Virus record (IMG/VR): IMGVR_UViG_3300028534_000020 | Location: 23,622-87,621 of that record | Length of the DNA stretch: 64,000 bases | Direction: 5' to 3' (one strand) | Source of the DNA: a virus | Part shown: positions 681 to 56,381 of the stretch, piece by piece | How the letters are laid out: each line of letters begins with the position of its first letter | Position numbering within the stretch: position 1 is the stretch's first letter | Program-made: the position numbers and the translations under genes | Notes under the pieces: generated by a model | What the model was told of the DNA's origin: nothing | Seen by the model: only the letters and a program-made list of their open reading frames with translations | Database searches by the model: none

Positions 681-1637
681 TTACGAGATAACAGCTATAA
701 TTTTTCTATCAATTTTCATTTCAGTTTTATCAGAATCGTCAGGTTTAACAATTATTGTGCGCTGTAATGACGCTTTATCTACATAAACGCGTTGTATAAC
801 GCCTGTTTTTATTTCTCCGTGTTTATTTTTGTATTTAACGCGTTGACCTTTAATAAATGGGCGCCCATCGTTTTTTATCGGTTTATCTTTACCTGTTAAT
901 ATTTTGTATGACGTTCTTGACATAAATGATTTTACGAGATTAGCTCTCATAGATTTTTCAGAATATGTTTCTTGAAGTATGTTCCTAAGAAAACGGTTTA
1001 TAGCACGTTTCTTTGAAATAAATGACATCGCTTTATGTTCTATGTGGTCTTTGTAATATTGCTCTGCTTTTTCATAAATTTCACGTTGATTTATTCTTTC
1101 AAGAAGTGTAGTTTTTTGGTGAGGCGTTTCTGGACGTGGATTGTATTTCTTTTGTAAAAATCTTACAACTTTTTGAAAATATTTTTCAGGGATAACTTCA
1201 TTACTGTTCTGCCATTCTGTTATTGAACGCCCAATTATTGAGCCTTTACTGTCGTATTCACGTTTATTGACAAGTTTTTGTTCAATTATTTTTGAAATTT
1301 CACGACGCGCTTTTTTATAATCAAATTCTTTATTGTTTTTTGTACTACTTAATTCTAAATCTGGCTGCTCATTGTCAAATTCTTTTTGAATTTCATTTGT
1401 AGACATTGCTTGTGGTACTTTTTCAACTGTATAAAAAGTTCTAAAACCAACTTTAACTGGCTGTATAAGATTTTTTTCAAGCAATGATTCGATTATAGGA
1501 TTTGCCCAGCGAGCGGCTGATTTTACAGGTTTTTTGCCTACTTTTTCACCAATAGAAGTTTTACTTACAGGCTTTTTGTTGCGTTCAACATATTTTAACA
1601 CTTTAAGTTCGTCGTCAGTGATATTTAACTTTGTCAT
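681..1637 (-). CDS. putative DNA-binding protein with N-terminal winged-helix-like segment
   Basis: Start moved to MTKLNIT because the longer start crosses the promoter at 1665; ELKVLKYV...IIESLLEKNLI pattern resembles wHTH. Confidence 0.55.
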   Translation of the reverse strand: MTKLNITDDELKVLKYVERNKKPVSKTSIGEKVGKKPVKSAARWANPIIESLLEKNLIQPVKVGFRTFYTVEKVPQAMSTNEIQKEFDNEQPDLELSSTKNNKEFDYKKARREISKIIEQKLVNKREYDSKGSIIGRSITEWQNSNEVIPEKYFQKVVRFLQKKYNPRPETPHQKTTLLERINQREIYEKAEQYYKDHIEHKAMSFISKKRAINRFLRNILQETYSEKSMRANLVKSFMSRTSYKILTGKDKPIKNDGRPFIKGQRVKYKNKHGEIKTGVIQRVYVDKASLQRTIIVKPDDSDKTEMKIDRKIIAVIS

Positions 1638-1664
1638 ATCGATAATTTTTATTGTTTCACAATG

Positions 1665-5550: not shown

Positions 5551-5967
5551 TTATTTATCGTTTACTAATTCTTTTACTGTTCTAACGCACTCTAAAAGCG
5601 TATACGGATTAACTTTTGACCATATACCGCCAAAATATGCAGTCATTTCTCGTAAAAACATTACTGCATCGCGCTCTGTATTGATATTTTTTACTTGATA
5701 ATACTCAAGTCTTGGCGGATATTCGAATTCATTATCATAAGCAAAAAATTTGAAACAAGTTTCGCAGGTTTTTATAACGACGTAATCGTAATGAGTAGAG
5801 TCACCCGGTTCACTTATGATATGTAATGCATTTTCGCATTTTTGTACTTTTTTCATCGTTTTAGATTTTTGAAAGATATTTAGAATTTTCAAGAAGTCGT
5901 CGAAATTTTCAATATCGAGACTGTGTTTATCGGCGACTTCTTGAAGTTCCTTAAACATTTTACCCAT
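5551..5967 (-). CDS. hypothetical protein
   Basis: Packed minus-strand ORF. Confidence 0.65.
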   Translation of the reverse strand: MGKMFKELQEVADKHSLDIENFDDFLKILNIFQKSKTMKKVQKCENALHIISEPGDSTHYDYVVIKTCETCFKFFAYDNEFEYPPRLEYYQVKNINTERDAVMFLREMTAYFGGIWSKVNPYTLLECVRTVKELVNDK

Positions 5968-6364: not shown

Positions 6365-6393
6365 TATGCTAACGTTTTATAAGTTTTACAATG

Positions 6394-6424
6394 CAAATAT
6401 ACACTATATACTTTTAATAAAAAA
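6394..6424 (-). promoter_or_regulatory. TAnnTTTG promoter cassette
   Basis: 31 bp identical to 11044-11074. Confidence 0.8.
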
Positions 6425-6453
6425 TATTTTTAAGGTTTTTTTAGAAAAATTTT

Positions 6454-11005: not shown

Positions 11006-11043
11006 TTTGCTAACGGTTTTAATTATTGTTTTGTTTTACACTA

Positions 11044-11074
11044 CAAATATACACTATATACTTTTAATAAAAAA
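11044..11074 (-). promoter_or_regulatory. TAnnTTTG promoter cassette
   Basis: 31 bp identical to 6394-6424. Confidence 0.8.
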
Positions 11075-11145
11075 ACTTTTTTGACATTTTTTTATAAAAA
11101 ATTTATAGTTTGTAATTATAATCAGCGTTTATAGCGCAAAAATTT

Positions 11146-14783: not shown

Positions 14784-14806
14784 ATTCGTTTAATAGTTTA
14801 TCAATA

Positions 14807-14815
14807 CAAATATAC
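14807..14815 (-). promoter_or_regulatory. TAnnTTTG promoter
   Basis: CAAATATAC 23 nt before the ATG at 14783; upstream part differs from the cassette copies. Confidence 0.6.
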
Positions 14816-14871
14816 ATAATAAATCTTTAAGAACAGTACCTCACAAAATAGCAGTGACTTTTTTACATATT

Positions 14872-47501: not shown

Positions 47502-47534
47502 AGTCCAATCTAAAATCTGTTATTGTTTACAAAG

Positions 47535-47573
47535 ACAAATATACACTATATATTTTTAATAGAAAAATTTTTT
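47535..47573 (-). promoter_or_regulatory. TAnnTTTG promoter cassette
   Basis: 39 bp identical to 22285-22323. Confidence 0.8.
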
Positions 47574-47574
47574 T

Positions 47575-51604: not shown

Positions 51605-52141
51605 TTAAGCCCAATTAAAATTTAGTTCGATATTTTTTATTGAATTTGTAGATTGAGCGAGCTCTTCAACGTTATCACACTCAGATATATTTTGTGTATC
51701 AGCTGATTTTAAACGCTGTAAAAAAATACCAATATATGACTGAGGTTCAATAGTACCTATAAGAATCTCGTTTTGTTGCGAAGTAATATCATTAAATTCT
51801 GCATAATAAGGTAAATCACGCTGAGTTTTCAACTCTTCAAAAATCGGTGCGCCACAACTTGATATATTTGGCGTAACAATTGCTGCTAATAGTTTATAAC
51901 CTTCTGGCACATTCGCATATAACGTAACATCTTGTAATTGCGTATCTGTTATATTTTTTGCAGCTATACAGATTATTTCATTTTCGTTCTTTACTTTTGT
52001 GTAATAAGAAATATCTCGAAACAAATTATTTTTACGGCCATTTGGAATTTGTGTACCTGATATATAACCGCCAAGTGATTTATGGATTTCTTTCTGTTCT
52101 GCACCATTTTCAAGTGCACCCGTGTAATATAATTTTATCAT
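51605..52141 (-). CDS. putative virion structural protein
   Basis: LYYTGA...SLGGYIS...IPN...NLF.DIS start resembles phage structural proteins (from recollection only). Confidence 0.4.
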   Translation of the reverse strand: MIKLYYTGALENGAEQKEIHKSLGGYISGTQIPNGRKNNLFRDISYYTKVKNENEIICIAAKNITDTQLQDVTLYANVPEGYKLLAAIVTPNISSCGAPIFEELKTQRDLPYYAEFNDITSQQNEILIGTIEPQSYIGIFLQRLKSADTQNISECDNVEELAQSTNSIKNIELNFNWA

Positions 52142-52533
52142 TTGTCAATTAGTTTATAAGTCGTGAATGTTATTATAGCAACACTAAAGCCAAATATAAA
52201 ATATTTTGTTTTAATTACTATTAAATTAGTTTGCCGTTGAGGTACTGCAATTTTTTTAATAAGTAATTGATTTTCAAGTTTTAATTCAGCTATTTGTTTC
52301 GTTCTATTCAATAGCATAGTGTCTTTTACAGCGACACGAAATTCACAGCTATCAAGTAAAACTCGCTGTTGAGTATTGATACTATCAAGTCGTTTGTAAT
52401 TAAGCTTATAAAACGCTAATTTTTTTGCTGTTTCAACATTAACGCATAACGTATCACTCTTTTTCGAGGATTGCCCGTAAACTGTCTTTGCTAATACCAG
52501 GGTTAACAGGAATAACAGGGTGATTTTTTTCAT
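52138..52533 (-). CDS. spanin-like protein (signal peptide, coiled coil, C-terminal TM)
   Basis: Topology; 80-bp overlap with the upstream TM/coiled-coil gene. Confidence 0.5.
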   Translation of the reverse strand: MKKITLLFLLTLVLAKTVYGQSSKKSDTLCVNVETAKKLAFYKLNYKRLDSINTQQRVLLDSCEFRVAVKDTMLLNRTKQIAELKLENQLLIKKIAVPQRQTNLIVIKTKYFIFGFSVAIITFTTYKLIDK

Positions 52534-52789
52534 AATCTTTTAATTTTCTGCGCAGTCTTTTATATTCAACACTTAAAATACTATCTTGCTTTTTACGCAA
52601 ATCAAAATCTTGTTTAAGACCATCATAACGTTTTAACGACTCATTATATAACGAATCTAAACGTTGAATTTTTTCTTTATTGATTTTATCAATTTCTCTT
52701 GATAATTTATAATTTGTAAAAAGTAAACCACCAAGAATTGCTACAAATATGCCAAACGAGACATATATAGCGATATTTTTAATAGTCAT
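52454..52789 (-). CDS. i-spanin-like protein
   Basis: N-terminal TM plus coiled coil, directly after the putative endolysin. Confidence 0.55.
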   Translation of the reverse strand: MTIKNIAIYVSFGIFVAILGGLLFTNYKLSREIDKINKEKIQRLDSLYNESLKRYDGLKQDFDLRKKQDSILSVEYKRLRRKLKDYEKNHPVIPVNPGISKDSLRAILEKE

Positions 52790-53213
52790 TGATAATTTCT
52801 ATTGTAGTTTCTTTTAAGCCTTTTAAGACGCGCTCAAAATCAGCTGTAGTACGCGTAGAACTTGTAACATCATAATATCCATCTTTATTCAAATCTTTAA
52901 GACGAATGCCTGGCGCTACACAACCGTTTAATTGAGTCCAAAAATTTGCAGGATGAATGCGTATTCCACTTCTATTGGGTACCTCATCTATAAGCCAAAC
53001 AAAACGTTTAAACTTTGGTGACCAAGTAAATCTTAACGGATAAATACCTTCTGGTATATTCGATACGTTTCTTTGATTATGACGTTCGCCACGTTCAATA
53101 CACATCGAACCAAAAACAGGTTGACCTGTATTATTGTCAATAATCAACAATATACCAGTCGACTGATTTTTATCAGCCCACTGTCTTTTAAGCTTGACTG
53201 ATAGATTTTTCAT
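52779..53213 (-). CDS. DUF5675-family putative endolysin
   Basis: STGIL...CIE...IPEGIY...VPNRSGIRIHPAN...LNGCVAPG. Confidence 0.75.
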   Translation of the reverse strand: MKNLSVKLKRQWADKNQSTGILLIIDNNTGQPVFGSMCIERGERHNQRNVSNIPEGIYPLRFTWSPKFKRFVWLIDEVPNRSGIRIHPANFWTQLNGCVAPGIRLKDLNKDGYYDVTSSTRTTADFERVLKGLKETTIEIINDY

Positions 53214-53562
53214 CTTGTTGTTTTTTTACTGGCTTAATTCTCAAAATAAAATCTTTACCTTCGCGCTCTTTTGTAAAATGACGCATCGTTGTTACAATAT
53301 TCCACGCTATCAACGAAATTATAAACCAACCAGAATTTTGTATCATATAAAAATTCATAAACGTCTCAAAATCTGCCAAATTGTATACCCATATAATAAA
53401 TGACGTATATGTCACTAAATATAAAATGATAATTGATACGTGTGCAGACGCGTGGTCTTCTGTTAATGCGCCATTATCGTGAATAAGTTCTTTTAGCTCT
53501 TTAACAGCTAAAAAGAATGAATACGCATAAAATAACAGACTTAAAATTGCGATTAGTTTCAT
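53188..53562 (-). CDS. multi-TM protein, holin/antiholin candidate
   Basis: Three hydrophobic segments inside the lysis cassette. Confidence 0.5.
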   Translation of the reverse strand: MKLIAILSLLFYAYSFFLAVKELKELIHDNGALTEDHASAHVSIIILYLVTYTSFIIWVYNLADFETFMNFYMIQNSGWFIISLIAWNIVTTMRHFTKEREGKDFILRIKPVKKQQDEKSISQA

Positions 53563-53912
53563 ATTTGTTTATTTTTTTTTAGCAAATTTGCAATTGAACT
53601 ACCAAGTGTGTCATTTTTCAATAAAAACACTATAATACTATACGCAAACACAGTTGTTAATAACATAATAAATATTCGCGTATCAGTTTCAAAAAGTTCT
53701 GGATAAAAGTGTTTAACGCCGAACGAAGCACCCCAGCCCGTTACAGATGACGAAATTAAATTAGAAATTATTGGGTAAACTTTCTTTTCTATTTTTTTCG
53801 CTTCAATCATAGCAGCAACGAATACAATACCAAATACAAAATATATAGGTAAATCTGCGAAAACAGCTAAACTTCCAGTTGTTACAGCCAAATAAATATT
53901 TAATTTACTCAT
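53559..53912 (-). CDS. multi-TM protein, holin candidate
   Basis: Three to four hydrophobic segments. Confidence 0.5.
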   Translation of the reverse strand: MSKLNIYLAVTTGSLAVFADLPIYFVFGIVFVAAMIEAKKIEKKVYPIISNLISSSVTGWGASFGVKHFYPELFETDTRIFIMLLTTVFAYSIIVFLLKNDTLGSSIANLLKKNKQI

Positions 53913-53928
53913 AGTTAATTGCGTTTAT

Positions 53929-54282
53929 TTACAATAAAATTAAATCAATTTTCAAAATATCATCATATTTTAATGCATTTTGCAATTGAGCATAATCTAC
54001 AACGTACTCACTTCCGTTATAATCAAAGGCGCAAGATTTACCATTCACTTTAATACACGTTATTTTTTGTTTACCTCTAAATAGTAAAAGAACCTTATTA
54101 TTATCCCAATCCCATTTTACACCAATAAAATTGATTATTTGGCCAGTGTCGAGATTTATATTTTGTAACCACGAGCCACAATTTATGCGTAAAATATTAT
54201 CTTGTGTGTCTACTACTATATGATAATATTTACGTTTTTTAAAGCTTTTACAGTACTTTTTTAATTTTTTTAATAGTTTCAT
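53929..54282 (-). CDS. hypothetical protein
   Basis: ORF immediately after the ncRNA-like island. Confidence 0.55.
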   Translation of the reverse strand: MKLLKKLKKYCKSFKKRKYYHIVVDTQDNILRINCGSWLQNINLDTGQIINFIGVKWDWDNNKVLLLFRGKQKITCIKVNGKSCAFDYNGSEYVVDYAQLQNALKYDDILKIDLILL

Positions 54283-54309
54283 TATTTGAGTTATTAAGTT
54301 GTTCTAAAA

Positions 54310-54553
54310 TAAAAATCGAGGCTCTTCTCGTCGCGTCCGGCGAGCGTCTATGCCTCGAATTTAGCTCCAACCTGCGTCCAGGCCTTCACAGCTAAAAGCA
54401 TTACACAAAACACGTAAGTGTCTATTTCACTCCCCTATTTCAGGGTTCTTTTCAACGCATCTTCCAACTTTGGCTTTCACGCACAATGGCAGACGAATTC
54501 CACGCCTTCTACGCTGGAAGCGCGACTTACGCATTAAGCGTAATGCAAGGGTT
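54310..54553 (-). ncRNA. putative structured non-coding RNA ending in a terminator hairpin
   Basis: About 49% GC by hand count (118/240 for 54311-54550). Arms 54525-54546 and 54398-54419 pair (G.U only on minus). Further hairpins and TCGAGGC/GCCTCGA followed by a T run. Confidence 0.7.
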
Positions 54554-54718
54554 GCGTAATTGGGTATCTTTGCGAGATTCCCACGCGAGAAGTCAATCAC
54601 GGCTAATCGCGTAATTGGGTATCTTTGCGAGATTCCCACACTGCCAGCCTATCAGAACTAACAGTGTAATTGGGTATCTTTGTGAGATTCCCACGCAAAA
54701 TTTGTCAATGAACTAATT
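54554..54718. repeat. three 55-bp units: 33-bp hairpin repeat plus 22-bp semi-conserved linker (CRISPR-like mini-array)
   Basis: GYGTAATTGGGTATCTTTGYGAGATTCCCACRC at 54554, 54609 and 54664; exact 55-bp period. Confidence 0.95.
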
Positions 54719-55822
54719 TATAATTTTATAAGTTATAAATTTTGAATAACCATCTTTATTTTTATATCCAAGCATTTTTACTTTTGCTAAATATTTTGAA
54801 ACATACGTTATAGCGCCTTGTTTGTATAATTTAATTTTAAACGCTAAATTTACATAACCAACTTGAGGTGAATGAGGCGTTATACGACCTCTCGATGAAC
54901 CATTTGGCACACCTTTTGGAGATGGATAATGATTATCTTTAAACCAAAGTTCAGGTTCAATATCAATCCAAGTGCAAATATCTTTTATTTCAAAATGCGT
55001 TTTTCGTCCATATAAATCACCATATTTAAGTTCACGATAACCAGCAACGCGTTTATTACGCGCCTCTGGACCTTTATACGCTGCGTGTCTATATCTATCA
55101 ACTACAACTTCTACTTTATCGACAAAATCAAATAAATCATCTACATTATTAAGACACACTCTTAAAAGTTTTGCTAAACCATTACCACTATCAATTGCTT
55201 TTACATAATTTACGTGTGGCACATCGTGTTGCTGATAATTATCACTTGTTAATTTATCTGACCAAGATACACTAAATGCATTTTGTAAAACAATGTCAAG
55301 TACATTTAATTCTTGAGATTTAAGAAAATCTTTTAATGAACTATTTCCAGTAACATTATGCGCCTTACGGTTGAATGAATAAGCTATATCATAATCAACT
55401 AACATAGAGTCAGTAGTTTGCTGTTTTGAAATTGTAGCAAAATCATCATAATCATATTGTGTTCCGCCTTGACCATAATTACCAGCATCAGTTGGCGTAA
55501 ATAAATATACAGCTTCACTTAAAACATTGTCATCTGAGTCTTTATTTGACTCGAAAAATAAATGAACTTCGCCTTCGTTGACTACAAATTGTTCCTGATT
55601 ATCTACAAATTCTTTAAGCGTAATTTGTAAAATATGATACACTTTATTAAAAGAAGCTACAGCGCCAGAATTTGAAGTATTTAACGCTTGCCATTCTTGT
55701 GCGCCAAAATTATACACTTTATGTACTTTTTCACGCTCATCAAACCATAACATTATTTTCGTCACTGGTGGATTGACGCCTGAGTGTATCGCTTTTACTA
55801 AACCTAAATTAAAAGTCGCCAT
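54713..55822 (-). CDS. tail-associated protein (fibre/accessory)
   Basis: N-terminus MATFNLGLVKAIHSGVNPP...LWFD resembles phage fibre starts; follows the tail genes. Confidence 0.45.
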   Translation of the reverse strand: MATFNLGLVKAIHSGVNPPVTKIMLWFDEREKVHKVYNFGAQEWQALNTSNSGAVASFNKVYHILQITLKEFVDNQEQFVVNEGEVHLFFESNKDSDDNVLSEAVYLFTPTDAGNYGQGGTQYDYDDFATISKQQTTDSMLVDYDIAYSFNRKAHNVTGNSSLKDFLKSQELNVLDIVLQNAFSVSWSDKLTSDNYQQHDVPHVNYVKAIDSGNGLAKLLRVCLNNVDDLFDFVDKVEVVVDRYRHAAYKGPEARNKRVAGYRELKYGDLYGRKTHFEIKDICTWIDIEPELWFKDNHYPSPKGVPNGSSRGRITPHSPQVGYVNLAFKIKLYKQGAITYVSKYLAKVKMLGYKNKDGYSKFITYKIIN

Positions 55823-55823
55823 A

Positions 55824-56381
55824 TTAAGTAGTTTGTGCTTTAACTGTTATATATTGATAATTTGTGTCTGTTTTTGGAATCTCATACTCTGTATCATCAA
55901 TTTTAAAACGAAACGCTTCTGATATAGCAGTAGGGAATACATTAAATTGTAATGTATATTCTGCTAAATTTGTTGTTATTTGTCCTACATTATTTGTCGT
56001 ACCAAATTTTTTCCACTCGCCATTTAATAAAAATTGAACCTCTTTATTAGCTTGACTATCAAACTCAATTATATACATAAAAGTAGGGACTTTTACATTA
56101 TATAATACACGCACTTTTTTTTCAATTTTCCAATCGCGAATATTCATATATTCTATGAGTTCAGCATCTGTGACAGTACTTAAAATAGAAATTGGCGATG
56201 CTTCAATTGTAGCATACAAATTCGTTAAATTAAATCTACCTTCACTTATTAACTTTTGAATTAAAGCATCAAGCTCTTTGTTAATAAGAGCTTGGCGGTC
56301 TTCGTGCGATAATAATTCCCAGTTAATAACTTTTAATGCTTCTTCGATTGTAAAATCAATATTGGGACAAGTTTCTGCCAT
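55824..56381 (-). CDS. putative tail protein
   Basis: Position in the tail module. Confidence 0.45.
   Translation of the reverse strand: MAETCPNIDFTIEEALKVINWELLSHEDRQALINKELDALIQKLISEGRFNLTNLYATIEASPISILSTVTDAELIEYMNIRDWKIEKKVRVLYNVKVPTFMYIIEFDSQANKEVQFLLNGEWKKFGTTNNVGQITTNLAEYTLQFNVFPTAISEAFRFKIDDTEYEIPKTDTNYQYITVKAQTT

What the first reader, a model, noticed from the sequence alone, without database searches (positions are those of the whole stretch)
54554..54718. Cas-less array of three 55-bp hairpin units fused to the structured RNA
Seen: 33-bp repeats at 54554, 54609 and 54664 that fold as GCGT-AATT-GGGTATCT-loop-AGATTCCC-ACGC, with 22-bp linkers. The first two linkers match at 11 of 22 positions (AG.C.ATCA...CTAA) and the third keeps CTAA in the same register, so they are not independent CRISPR spacers. 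No cas, Nop/Tas or reverse transcriptase gene is in the window. Inference, in no proven order: an RNA decoy array (anti-CRISPR repeat mimic or pseudo type III antitoxin), a guide array whose scaffold is the adjacent RNA, a protein sponge, or DNA iterons. Array plus scaffold plus terminator may be one undescribed RNA-based counter-defence unit.
Basis: partly seen in the sequence, partly recalled or inferred. Interest (0 to 1): 0.85.

Follow-up and report, generated by a model that had tools for sequence, protein, structure and literature searches.

The report
Hairpin triplet beside phage rRNA-mimic RNA
Three tandem 55-base hairpin units in a phage genome are real, but they are not a CRISPR-like array: they look like a one-lineage add-on to a non-coding RNA whose core copies the part of 23S ribosomal RNA that binds ribosomal proteins uL4 and uL24, and that core is the more interesting discovery.

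Summary
Three 55-nt units (33-nt hairpin plus 22-nt linker) lie at 54554-54718. The hairpin motif occurs nowhere else in the 90.6-kb phage record.

The hairpins are far better conserved than the linkers (6/99 against 39/66 mismatches). The third 'CTAA' contains the stop codon of the upstream tail-fibre-like gene. The array therefore looks like a tandem triplication of [gene end + spacer + hairpin], not a set of acquired spacers.

The record has no Cas, Nop/Tas, reverse transcriptase or ToxN. No array with the same stems turned up in 185,579 species genomes.

The new result concerns the adjacent 'scaffold' (core 54406-54536, minus strand). It is one of five members found of a small, covariation-supported RNA family. 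The others are in two further phage contigs and two Flavobacterium prophage-like regions. The family imitates the 23S rRNA H18-H20 junction (the primary uL4/uL24 site) plus the H24 junction. None of the other members has the array.

In two lineages the RNA sits just upstream of a lysis cassette. A vent metatranscriptome holds near-identical contigs of the array only.

Best reading (about 0.4): the array is a selected 5' hairpin module of one minus-strand RNA that ends at an intrinsic terminator. What it does is not shown. The counter-defence reading has no support.

The scan had noted the scaffold before on this same window, but not on other DNA.

The parts
54554..54586 (-). Hairpin repeat 1 (33 nt), next to the scaffold; the last repeat on the minus-strand RNA
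54587..54608 (-). Linker 1 (22 nt). On minus it can be closed by a 6-bp stem made from the ends of the flanking repeats
   Evidence: read directly from the sequence
54609..54641 (-). Hairpin repeat 2 (one change at its end)
54642..54663 (-). Linker 2. It forms a 12-bp hairpin with the flanking repeat ends, and the two repeat-end substitutions beside it are mutually compensatory
   Evidence: read directly from the sequence
54664..54696 (-). Hairpin repeat 3 (two changes); the first repeat on the minus-strand RNA. An RNA-library contig ends at 54682, inside its loop, followed by adapter sequence
54697..54718 (-). Linker 3. It overlaps the last codon and the UAG stop (54713-54715) of the upstream gene
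   Evidence: read directly from the sequence
54406..54536 (-). Core of the rRNA-mimic RNA family (closing helix P1, H18-like helix, H19-, H19a- and H20-like hairpins, H24-like junction)
   Evidence: a covariance model built from another phage's copy alone scores 52.6 bits here, E=5e-10
54492..54506 (-). H19-like hairpin with a UGGAA loop
54472..54482 (-). H20-like hairpin with a GUGAnAG loop
54420..54455 (-). H24-like junction: 36 nt, near-identical to the universally conserved 23S rRNA segment
54361..54397 (-). Extra hairpin between the core and the terminator
54306..54359 (-). Extended G+C-rich hairpin followed by U5AU4: an intrinsic-terminator-like element on minus only
   Evidence: The simple terminator scanner missed it because its loop is large
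54713..55822 (-). Upstream gene P0001 (369 aa), a modular tail-fibre-like protein
53929..54282 (-). Downstream gene P0002 (117 aa, no relatives found), the first gene after the terminator. Membrane-protein genes and a DUF5675 gene follow it (lysis-cassette-like)

Best explanation
The three units form the 5' part of one minus-strand non-coding RNA segment, from about 54718 down to about 54306. This segment follows the last tail-fibre-like gene and ends at an intrinsic terminator just before the lysis cassette.

The array arose by tandem triplication of a 55-nt piece made of the gene's stop-codon region, about 16 nt of spacer and one hairpin. The hairpin has been kept by selection while the spacer drifted.

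The array most likely acts as RNA. It would be a set of repeated stem-loops that bind a protein or block nucleases. In that role it would stabilise, insulate or load the adjacent RNA.

That adjacent RNA mimics the 23S rRNA platform for ribosomal proteins uL4 and uL24. It probably titrates or senses those proteins close to the lysis genes.

Shown: the repeats, their selective conservation, the absence of Cas/Tas/RT/ToxN, the rRNA-mimic family and its covariation, and the minus-strand terminator.

Inferred: that array and core share one transcript, that the hairpins act as RNA, and every statement about binding partners.
For: 1. All of the roughly 117 ORFs in the record are on the minus strand. 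The scaffold folds at -86.4 kcal/mol on minus (z -3.3) against -65.6 on plus (z -1.9). The hairpin followed by a U-run exists only on minus.
2. The 430-nt gap is the only G+C-rich intergenic stretch in the record: about 47% against 31%.
3. Repeats show 6/99 mismatches and linkers 39/66, Fisher p=4e-14. The hairpin is therefore constrained.
4. The 'UUAG' of the first unit on minus contains the gene's UAG stop. Linkers 1 and 3 share a 6-mer, GTCAAT on the + strand (AUUGAC on minus), offset by 2 nt. This is what duplication followed by divergence would leave.
5. The paired changes at the repeat ends flanking linker 2 keep Watson-Crick pairing across that linker.
6. A vent metatranscriptome from another study holds 85- and 92-nt contigs of the array at 96-99% identity. 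It gives no cover on the 3 kb of flanking genes. One contig ends at 54682 followed by the Read-1 adapter.
7. The adjacent core belongs to an RNA family found with a covariance model built without this window (E=5e-10). In the four-sequence alignment 27 of 34 pairs change on both sides.
Against: - The array folds equally well on both strands (z -3.7 and -4.6), and single units fold no better than shuffles.
- The other four members of the rRNA-mimic family have no such array.
- The same RNA run shows no contigs over the scaffold, apart from true rRNA contigs on the 34-nt shared motif. Co-transcription as one stable RNA is therefore not shown.
- The contigs give no strand, and DNA carry-over in that library cannot be excluded.
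- The 8-5-8 imperfect palindrome would also suit a dimeric DNA-binding protein.
- No binding partner is known.
Confidence: 0.4

Rival explanations
1. The units act as double-stranded DNA sites: three operators or iteron-like sites for a dimeric DNA-binding protein, or promoter-like elements on the + strand, spaced 55 bp apart.
For: Each repeat is an imperfect 8-5-8 palindrome whose half-sites agree at 7 of 8 positions. The spacing is exact. Neither strand folds better. Each repeat carries TATCTTTG on +, which fits the Bacteroidota -7 motif TAnnTTTG, and the phage's own intergenic regions use GTATATTTG on minus.
Against: No TTTG -33 element lies upstream of the + strand motifs (and the sequence). 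Nothing is encoded on + in the whole record. The site lies between tail-fibre and lysis genes, not near replication or regulator genes. It is embedded in a G+C-rich island that is demonstrably a structured RNA. Array contigs occur in an RNA library.
Confidence: 0.15
2. The array is a guide-type array or repeat decoy: a mini-CRISPR, a TIGR-like array, or an RNA anti-CRISPR that mimics a host CRISPR repeat.
For: Three direct repeats of CRISPR-like length with a hairpin. Once the CTAA end is removed, the 16-nt variable parts are only weakly related (7/16, p=0.09).
Against: PADLOC, Pfam and six-frame scans of the 90.6-kb record find no Cas, Nop/Tas or RT. The variable parts are 16-22 nt and share motifs. 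No tandem array with these stems exists in 185,579 species genomes, and none was found in IMG/VR or the metagenome contigs. The linkers have no match in the phage itself. The hairpin loop is 5 nt, so there is no room for TIGR dual spacers.
Confidence: 0.07
3. The array is a type III antitoxin-like RNA or a pseudo-antitoxin. Its repeats would be cut into units that neutralise an endoribonuclease toxin, either P0002 downstream or a host ToxN-like protein.
For: The order is tandem repeats, terminator, then a small ORF (P0002, 117 aa, basic N-terminus, beta-rich), which recalls toxI-terminator-toxN.
Against: A six-frame scan finds no ToxN family match. P0002 has no relatives and no informative fold. 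A 250-nt rRNA-mimic RNA separates the repeats from the terminator. From my own knowledge, the 55-nt unit is longer than described ToxI, CptI or TenpI units.
Confidence: 0.06
4. The array is a recent, functionless tandem duplication, for example by replication slippage at a gene-end hairpin, kept uniform by gene conversion.
For: It occurs in only one lineage. It is absent from the phage's nearest relatives and from the other members of the RNA family. The unit includes the gene's stop codon.
Against: The linkers have diverged about 59% while the hairpins have diverged about 6%, which is hard to get without selection on the hairpin. The array is kept at 96-99% identity in a second sample from another study.
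Confidence: 0.15

Closest known systems
Ribosomal-protein autoregulatory leaders that mimic rRNA binding sites (Nomura model; for example the L1, L10, L20 and S15 leaders, and L4 control of the S10 leader)
   Same: The adjacent core copies the sequence and secondary structure of an r-protein binding site: the 23S H18-H20 junction, which is the primary uL4/uL24 site (PMC6426284), plus the H24 junction, which contacts it and uL24 (PMC6367999). In this phage it lies upstream of a terminator and downstream genes, as the L4-responsive S10 attenuator does.
   Different: It is encoded by phages and prophage-like regions, not upstream of any r-protein gene. No phage uL4 or uL24 gene exists. It matches no Rfam leader family. 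The hairpin array has no counterpart in such leaders. Binding is untested.
CRISPR arrays and phage solitary-repeat RNA anti-CRISPRs
   Same: Direct repeats of about 33 nt with a stem-loop, separated by short variable segments, carried by a phage without cas genes.
   Different: The variable parts are 16-22 nt and related to each other. No matching CRISPR array was found in 185,579 species genomes. The unit contains a stop codon of the neighbouring gene.
TIGR arrays (dual-repeat or stem-loop) of TIGR-Tas systems
   Same: Common in phages, tandem short units, and a terminator after the array.
   Different: No Nop-domain protein. Units are 55 nt, not 36 nt. The conserved part here is the hairpin and its loop is only 5 nt, whereas TIGR stem-loop units carry two 8-12-nt spacers with box C/D motifs inside the loop (PMC12045711; bioRxiv 10.64898/2026.09.09.750476).
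Type III toxin-antitoxin antitoxin repeats (ToxI, CptI, TenpI) and phage pseudo-ToxI
   Same: Tandem RNA repeats followed by a terminator and a small ORF.
   Different: No ToxN-family toxin. The unit is longer. A large structured RNA lies between the repeats and the terminator.
REP/BIME-type extragenic palindromes that stabilise the 3' ends of mRNAs
   Same: Imperfect palindromes directly after a stop codon, in tandem, able to block 3' exonucleases.
   Different: REP elements are dispersed in many copies. This motif occurs at one locus only.

Membership tests
CRISPR array | Direct repeats of 23-47 nt, at least two or three copies | tested here: met
   Three 33-nt repeats
CRISPR array | Unique, mutually unrelated spacers of about 26-72 nt | tested here: not met
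   Linkers are 22 nt, agree at 11/22 and share CTAA in register. One contains the neighbouring gene's stop codon
CRISPR array | Associated cas genes, or a cellular CRISPR locus with the same repeat | tested here: not met
   No Cas effector in the 90.6-kb record; the only Cas-labelled PADLOC hit is a DEDDh exonuclease model. No tandem array with the same stems in genome contigs. The host genome may not be in the collection
TIGR-Tas | Tas protein with a Nop domain next to the array | tested here: not met
   A six-frame scan with PF01798 finds nothing at E<=1. The neighbour P0001 is tail-fibre-like
TIGR-Tas | Units with two 8-12-nt spacers flanked by box C/D motifs (36-nt dual repeat, or spacers inside stem-loops) | tested here: not met
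   The loop is 5 nt and there is a single 16-22-nt variable part
Type III toxin-antitoxin (ToxIN, CptIN, TenpIN) | ToxN, CptN or TenpN endoribonuclease gene downstream of the repeats | tested here: inconclusive
   No PF13958 match. P0002 has no relatives and its structure is not informative. CptN and TenpN profiles were not tested separately
Type III toxin-antitoxin (ToxIN, CptIN, TenpIN) | Repeats processed into unit-length RNAs | not testable with these tools
   Only contigs of one RNA run were available
rRNA-mimic RNA family defined here (model R2) | Closing helix, H18-like helix, H19-like UGGAA hairpin, H20-like GUGAnAG hairpin and H24-like junction | tested here: met
   The scaffold at 54406-54536 meets all of these. 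The array lies outside the model, and the other four members have none
Ribosomal-protein leader | Located upstream of the gene for the r-protein that it binds | tested here: not met
   Downstream genes are P0002 and a lysis cassette. The record has no uL4 or uL24 gene
Ribosomal-protein leader | Binds the r-protein | not testable with these tools
   Needs EMSA or pull-down
REP/BIME elements | Many dispersed copies in the genome | tested here: not met
   The motif occurs only at this locus
Replication iterons | Next to an initiator or replication module | tested here: not met
   The neighbours are tail-fibre and lysis genes

The most novel reading that the evidence does not exclude
The whole 54306-54718 element is a phage RNA that imitates the first assembly platform of the large ribosomal subunit: the uL24/uL4 site (H18-H20) plus H24. 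It is made in large amounts behind highly expressed late genes.

It would either soak up free uL4 and uL24 to stop the host building ribosomes, or read their free level to time read-through into the lysis cassette. The second option resembles L4-dependent attenuation at the S10 leader.

In this lineage the triplicated hairpins would add a second, multivalent binding module (a sponge) or protect the RNA's 5' end.
Probability: 0.3. Interest if true: 0.85.

Novelty: new variant of a known kind. Interest (0 to 1): 0.6.

Why it matters
Mimicry of rRNA by mRNA leaders is the classic way bacteria balance ribosomal protein synthesis. In the limited full-text search I could run, I found no paper reporting a phage RNA that copies the uL4/uL24 nucleation site of 23S rRNA. 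Such an RNA would point to a new way for phages to sense or sabotage ribosome assembly, or to time lysis.

The hairpin array itself matters less. It shows how such an RNA can gain a repeated module by duplicating a gene-end hairpin. It also removes one candidate from the list of 'Cas-less guide arrays'.

The family model (R2) makes the question directly testable by binding assays and phage genetics.

Tried and rejected
- **Rfam.** A gathering-threshold scan of the whole window and a permissive scan of 54000-55000 gave only two chance-level hits (mir-7398, a C/D snoRNA).
- **tRNA/tmRNA.** None found.
- **DNA similarity.** blastn of the gap against 50,697 phage records found no match. Exact-pattern scans for the hairpin found none in IMG/VR, the metagenome contigs or, in tandem form, genome contigs.
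- **Flanking proteins.** P0001 and P0002 have no close relatives in IMG/VR or in the 5.8-billion-protein set.
- **Structure.** AlphaFold2 of P0001 without an alignment gave pLDDT 31.6, which is unusable. ESM Atlas look-ups of P0001 and P0002 were uninformative.
- **Related phages.** Relatives with TerL at 46-61% and baseplate J at 41-50% identity have no G+C-rich gap or tandem repeat at the syntenic place. Three of them have no R2 match anywhere in the record.
- **Linkers against the phage's own genome.** Nothing better than 4 mismatches.
- **Scaffold as decayed copies of the unit.** No significant similarity.
- **Array against a Flavobacterium rRNA operon.** Scores fall within the shuffles.
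- **Terminator and promoter scanner.** It did not flag the terminator, whose loop is too large, and promoter-like hits were at chance level.
- **Sequencing runs.** For the 1.2-kb stretch, the only DNA holder is the likely source sample and no RNA holder was listed. For the 443-nt stretch, one RNA run held a small share of the words. When laid, it covered only the array and the rRNA-like 34-mer. The uncovered parts are not evidence of silence.
- **Complex prediction.** Not used. The open question is RNA-protein binding, which that tool does not address.

Full report
**Setting**

The window is bases 23622-87621 of a 90,645-bp IMG/VR virus record, 31% G+C, estimated 82% complete. All of its roughly 117 ORFs lie on the minus strand. 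It is a tailed phage with large terminase, portal and baseplate J genes. The nearest cultured relatives by terminase are Bacteroides phages at 38.5% identity. Several intergenic regions on the minus strand carry GTATATTTG, which fits the Bacteroidota -7 promoter motif. A Bacteroidota host is likely but not shown.

**The observation**

Three 55-nt units start at 54554, 54609 and 54664. The hairpin core occurs only at these three places in the window, against 0.03 expected by chance.

The units lie in a 430-nt gap (54283-54712). At about 47% G+C it is the only G+C-rich intergenic stretch in the record.

A second run, a hydrothermal-vent metatranscriptome from another study, holds two contigs that bridge repeat-linker-repeat at 96-99% identity. 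The array is therefore real, and it exists outside the source sample.

**What the array is not**

- PADLOC and Pfam scans of 77 ORFs, and six-frame scans for RVT_1, Nop and ToxN, find no Cas effector, Tas protein, reverse transcriptase or ToxN in the whole record.
- The upstream gene P0001 (369 aa) is not a hidden effector. Its first 50 or so residues are shared with 40-odd proteins of 83-1013 aa. One of these sits right after baseplate J in a related phage. The rest of P0001 resembles a few proteins of similar size. This modular pattern is typical of tail fibres.
- No tandem array with the same stems exists in one genome from each of 185,579 species, in IMG/VR, or in the metagenome contigs.
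- The linkers match nothing else in the phage.
- TIGR arrays have 36-nt dual-repeat units, or stem-loops that carry two 8-12-nt spacers with box C/D motifs inside the loop. Here the loop is 5 nt and the hairpin is the conserved part.

**How the array probably arose**

The repeats differ at 6 of 99 compared positions and the linkers at 39 of 66 (Fisher p=4e-14). The hairpin is under constraint and the linker is not.

Linker similarity is modest. It is 11/22 (p=0.016), falling to 7/16 (p=0.09) when the CTAA end is left out. Linkers 1 and 3 also share a 6-mer, GTCAAT on the + strand (AUUGAC on minus), offset by 2 nt.

Read on the minus strand, each variable part is preceded by UUAG. In the first unit that UAG is the stop codon of P0001 (54713-54715). 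The simplest history is a tandem triplication of [gene end + about 16 nt + hairpin], followed by drift of the non-hairpin part.

Two substitutions sit at the repeat ends on either side of linker 2. They are complementary to each other. They keep a stem that encloses linker 2, which is 12 bp in the minimum-energy fold. The ends flanking linker 1 can form 6 bp. The units may therefore alternate between a conserved hairpin and a linker hairpin. With only three copies this cannot be tested statistically.

**Strand**

The array itself folds equally well on both strands (z -3.7 and -4.6). The context argues for minus:
- All genes are on minus.
- The adjacent 258 nt fold at -86.4 kcal/mol on minus (z -3.3), against -65.6 on plus (z -1.9).
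- The extended G+C-rich hairpin at 54316-54359 is followed by U5AU4 only on minus.
- One RNA-library contig runs on the + strand up to 54682 and then into the Read-1 adapter. If that library is stranded in the usual way, this would be the 5' end of a minus-strand RNA inside the loop of the first hairpin. This is a weak hint only, because contigs carry no strand information.

**The adjacent RNA is a 23S rRNA mimic**

In the RNA run, very abundant contigs matched only 54421-54456 and then ran on into unrelated sequence. A permissive blastn of the scaffold hit a record annotated as 23S rRNA.

On the minus strand, 54420-54455 reproduces the universally conserved 23S junction around helix 24, matching 32 of 34 positions. 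Against shuffles the score is 47 versus a mean of 21.7, Gumbel p about 8e-7 for one 23S sequence.

Scanning the public collections for this motif with non-rRNA flanks found mostly true rRNA genes, but also four non-rRNA loci:
- L014 (also held as L046), a 24.8-kb phage contig.
- L031, a 1.3-kb metagenome contig.
- L071, in a Flavobacterium MAG.
- L079, in a second Flavobacterium genome (found later, with model R2).

I built a covariance model from L014 alone, with a hand-drawn structure. It finds L031 (E=1e-19), this window at 54406-54536 on minus (52.6 bits, E=5e-10) and L071 (E=8e-8). A real 23S rRNA scores only 15 bits.

On the resulting four-sequence alignment, 94.6% of cells pair and 27 of 34 pairs change on both sides. 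Slid controls give 40-48% pairing and 6-7 such pairs. The alignment was fitted to the model, which flatters these counts, but the margin is large.

The architecture is as follows:
- a closing helix;
- an H18-like helix that encloses an H19-like hairpin with a UGGAA loop, a small H19a hairpin, and an H20-like hairpin with a GUGAnAG loop;
- then the H24-like junction.

These match the Rfam LSU consensus for H19 and H20. In the Flavobacterium copies they also match the host-type 23S almost letter for letter, at 17 of 18 positions around H20.

E. coli 23S nt 281-359 (H18-H20) is the primary binding site of uL24 and uL4 (PMC6426284). H16-20 contact H24, uL4 binds H19 and uL24 binds H24 (PMC6367999). 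The family thus fuses two rRNA pieces that lie about 110 nt apart in the Flavobacterium 23S and touch in the ribosome.

**Distribution and context of the family**

The family is rare:
- It is absent from three of the phage's closest relatives.
- It was found in 2 of 151 Flavobacterium genomes sampled. In samples of 151 genomes each from the family and the phylum, the only match was the genome used as query.
- The rRNA genes of those genomes do not reach the threshold, so the matches are not rRNA fragments.
- No flanking protein is shared between lineages.

Position is suggestive:
- In L014 the RNA lies between the major capsid gene and a holin-like gene followed by a CHAP endolysin gene.
- In this phage it lies between the tail-fibre-like gene and a run of six genes: P0002, two multi-pass membrane proteins, a DUF5675 protein, a protein with a transmembrane segment plus coiled coil, and a signal-peptide protein. 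This looks like a lysis cassette.
- Compared with its relatives, this phage carries a 4.2-kb insertion here.
- The phage encodes no uL4 or uL24 of its own.

**Mechanism**

Everything in this section is inferred. The core most likely binds free uL4 and/or uL24.

Two uses fit its placement behind highly expressed late genes and before a terminator and the lysis genes. It could titrate the proteins that nucleate 50S assembly. Or it could sense them to set read-through or translation of the lysis cassette, much as L4 with NusA attenuates the S10 operon (established knowledge, not tested here).

The array is an add-on confined to this lineage: none of the other four members has it. I judge it most likely a repeated RNA stem-loop module that binds a protein or blocks nucleases at the 5' side of the RNA (confidence about 0.4).

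Rivals are double-stranded DNA operator or promoter-like sites (0.15), a neutral duplication (0.15), a guide or decoy array (0.07) and a type III antitoxin-like RNA (0.06).

**Verdict**

The 'Cas-less' description is right, and so is the 'one RNA unit' idea in outline. The counter-defence reading has no support.

The array alone is of moderate interest. Its neighbour is an rRNA-mimic RNA family that I found described neither in Rfam nor in my literature search, and that deserves follow-up. The scan had noted the scaffold before on this same window (e1-5355074), but not on other DNA.

Noticed in passing
window 54406-54536 (-); L014 5630-5772 (-); L031 1187-1319 (-); L071 4023-4172 (+); L079 about 1501-1649 (+): A new structured RNA family in phages and Flavobacterium prophage-like regions. 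It mimics the 23S rRNA H18-H20 three-way junction (the uL4/uL24 site) plus the H24 junction. In the four-sequence alignment 27 of 34 pairs covary. It has no Rfam family.
   Followed up: yes
window 52138-56381: A 4.2-kb stretch between the 790-aa tail fibre gene and the conserved 178-aa gene. Related phages have only about 0.8 kb there. Its genes are a 185-aa ORF, P0001, the RNA, P0002, two multi-pass membrane proteins, a DUF5675 protein and two spanin-like proteins, which together look like a lysis cassette.
   Followed up: partly
window 54713-55822 (-): The first 50 or so residues of P0001 are shared with more than 40 proteins of 83-1013 aa. This looks like a swappable N-terminal anchor of tail fibres or receptor-binding proteins. 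No relative was found by word-based search among 5.8 billion proteins.
   Followed up: partly
window 6365-6453, 11006-11145, 14784-14871, 47502-47574 (minus strand): The motif GTATATTTG recurs in intergenic regions. It fits the Bacteroidota -7 promoter element and supports a Bacteroidota host.
   Followed up: no
L013 3793-3822: A 3.8-kb IMG/VR 'viral' contig ends in a true 23S rRNA fragment. It is probably a chimeric or misclassified contig.
   Followed up: no
L012 (NZ_AP027616.1, 1-2911): A 2.9-kb circular 'E. coli plasmid' record consists almost entirely of a 23S rRNA gene. It was the only record of the E. coli collection that the scaffold hit in a permissive blastn. It looks like an assembly or contamination artefact.
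   Followed up: no
L014 about 5775-5866 (-): The L014 copy of the RNA family is also preceded by an extra hairpin: a 10-bp stem around a GCGAAAGC loop, just after the capsid gene's stop codon. Upstream accessory hairpins may be a loose feature of the family.
   Followed up: no
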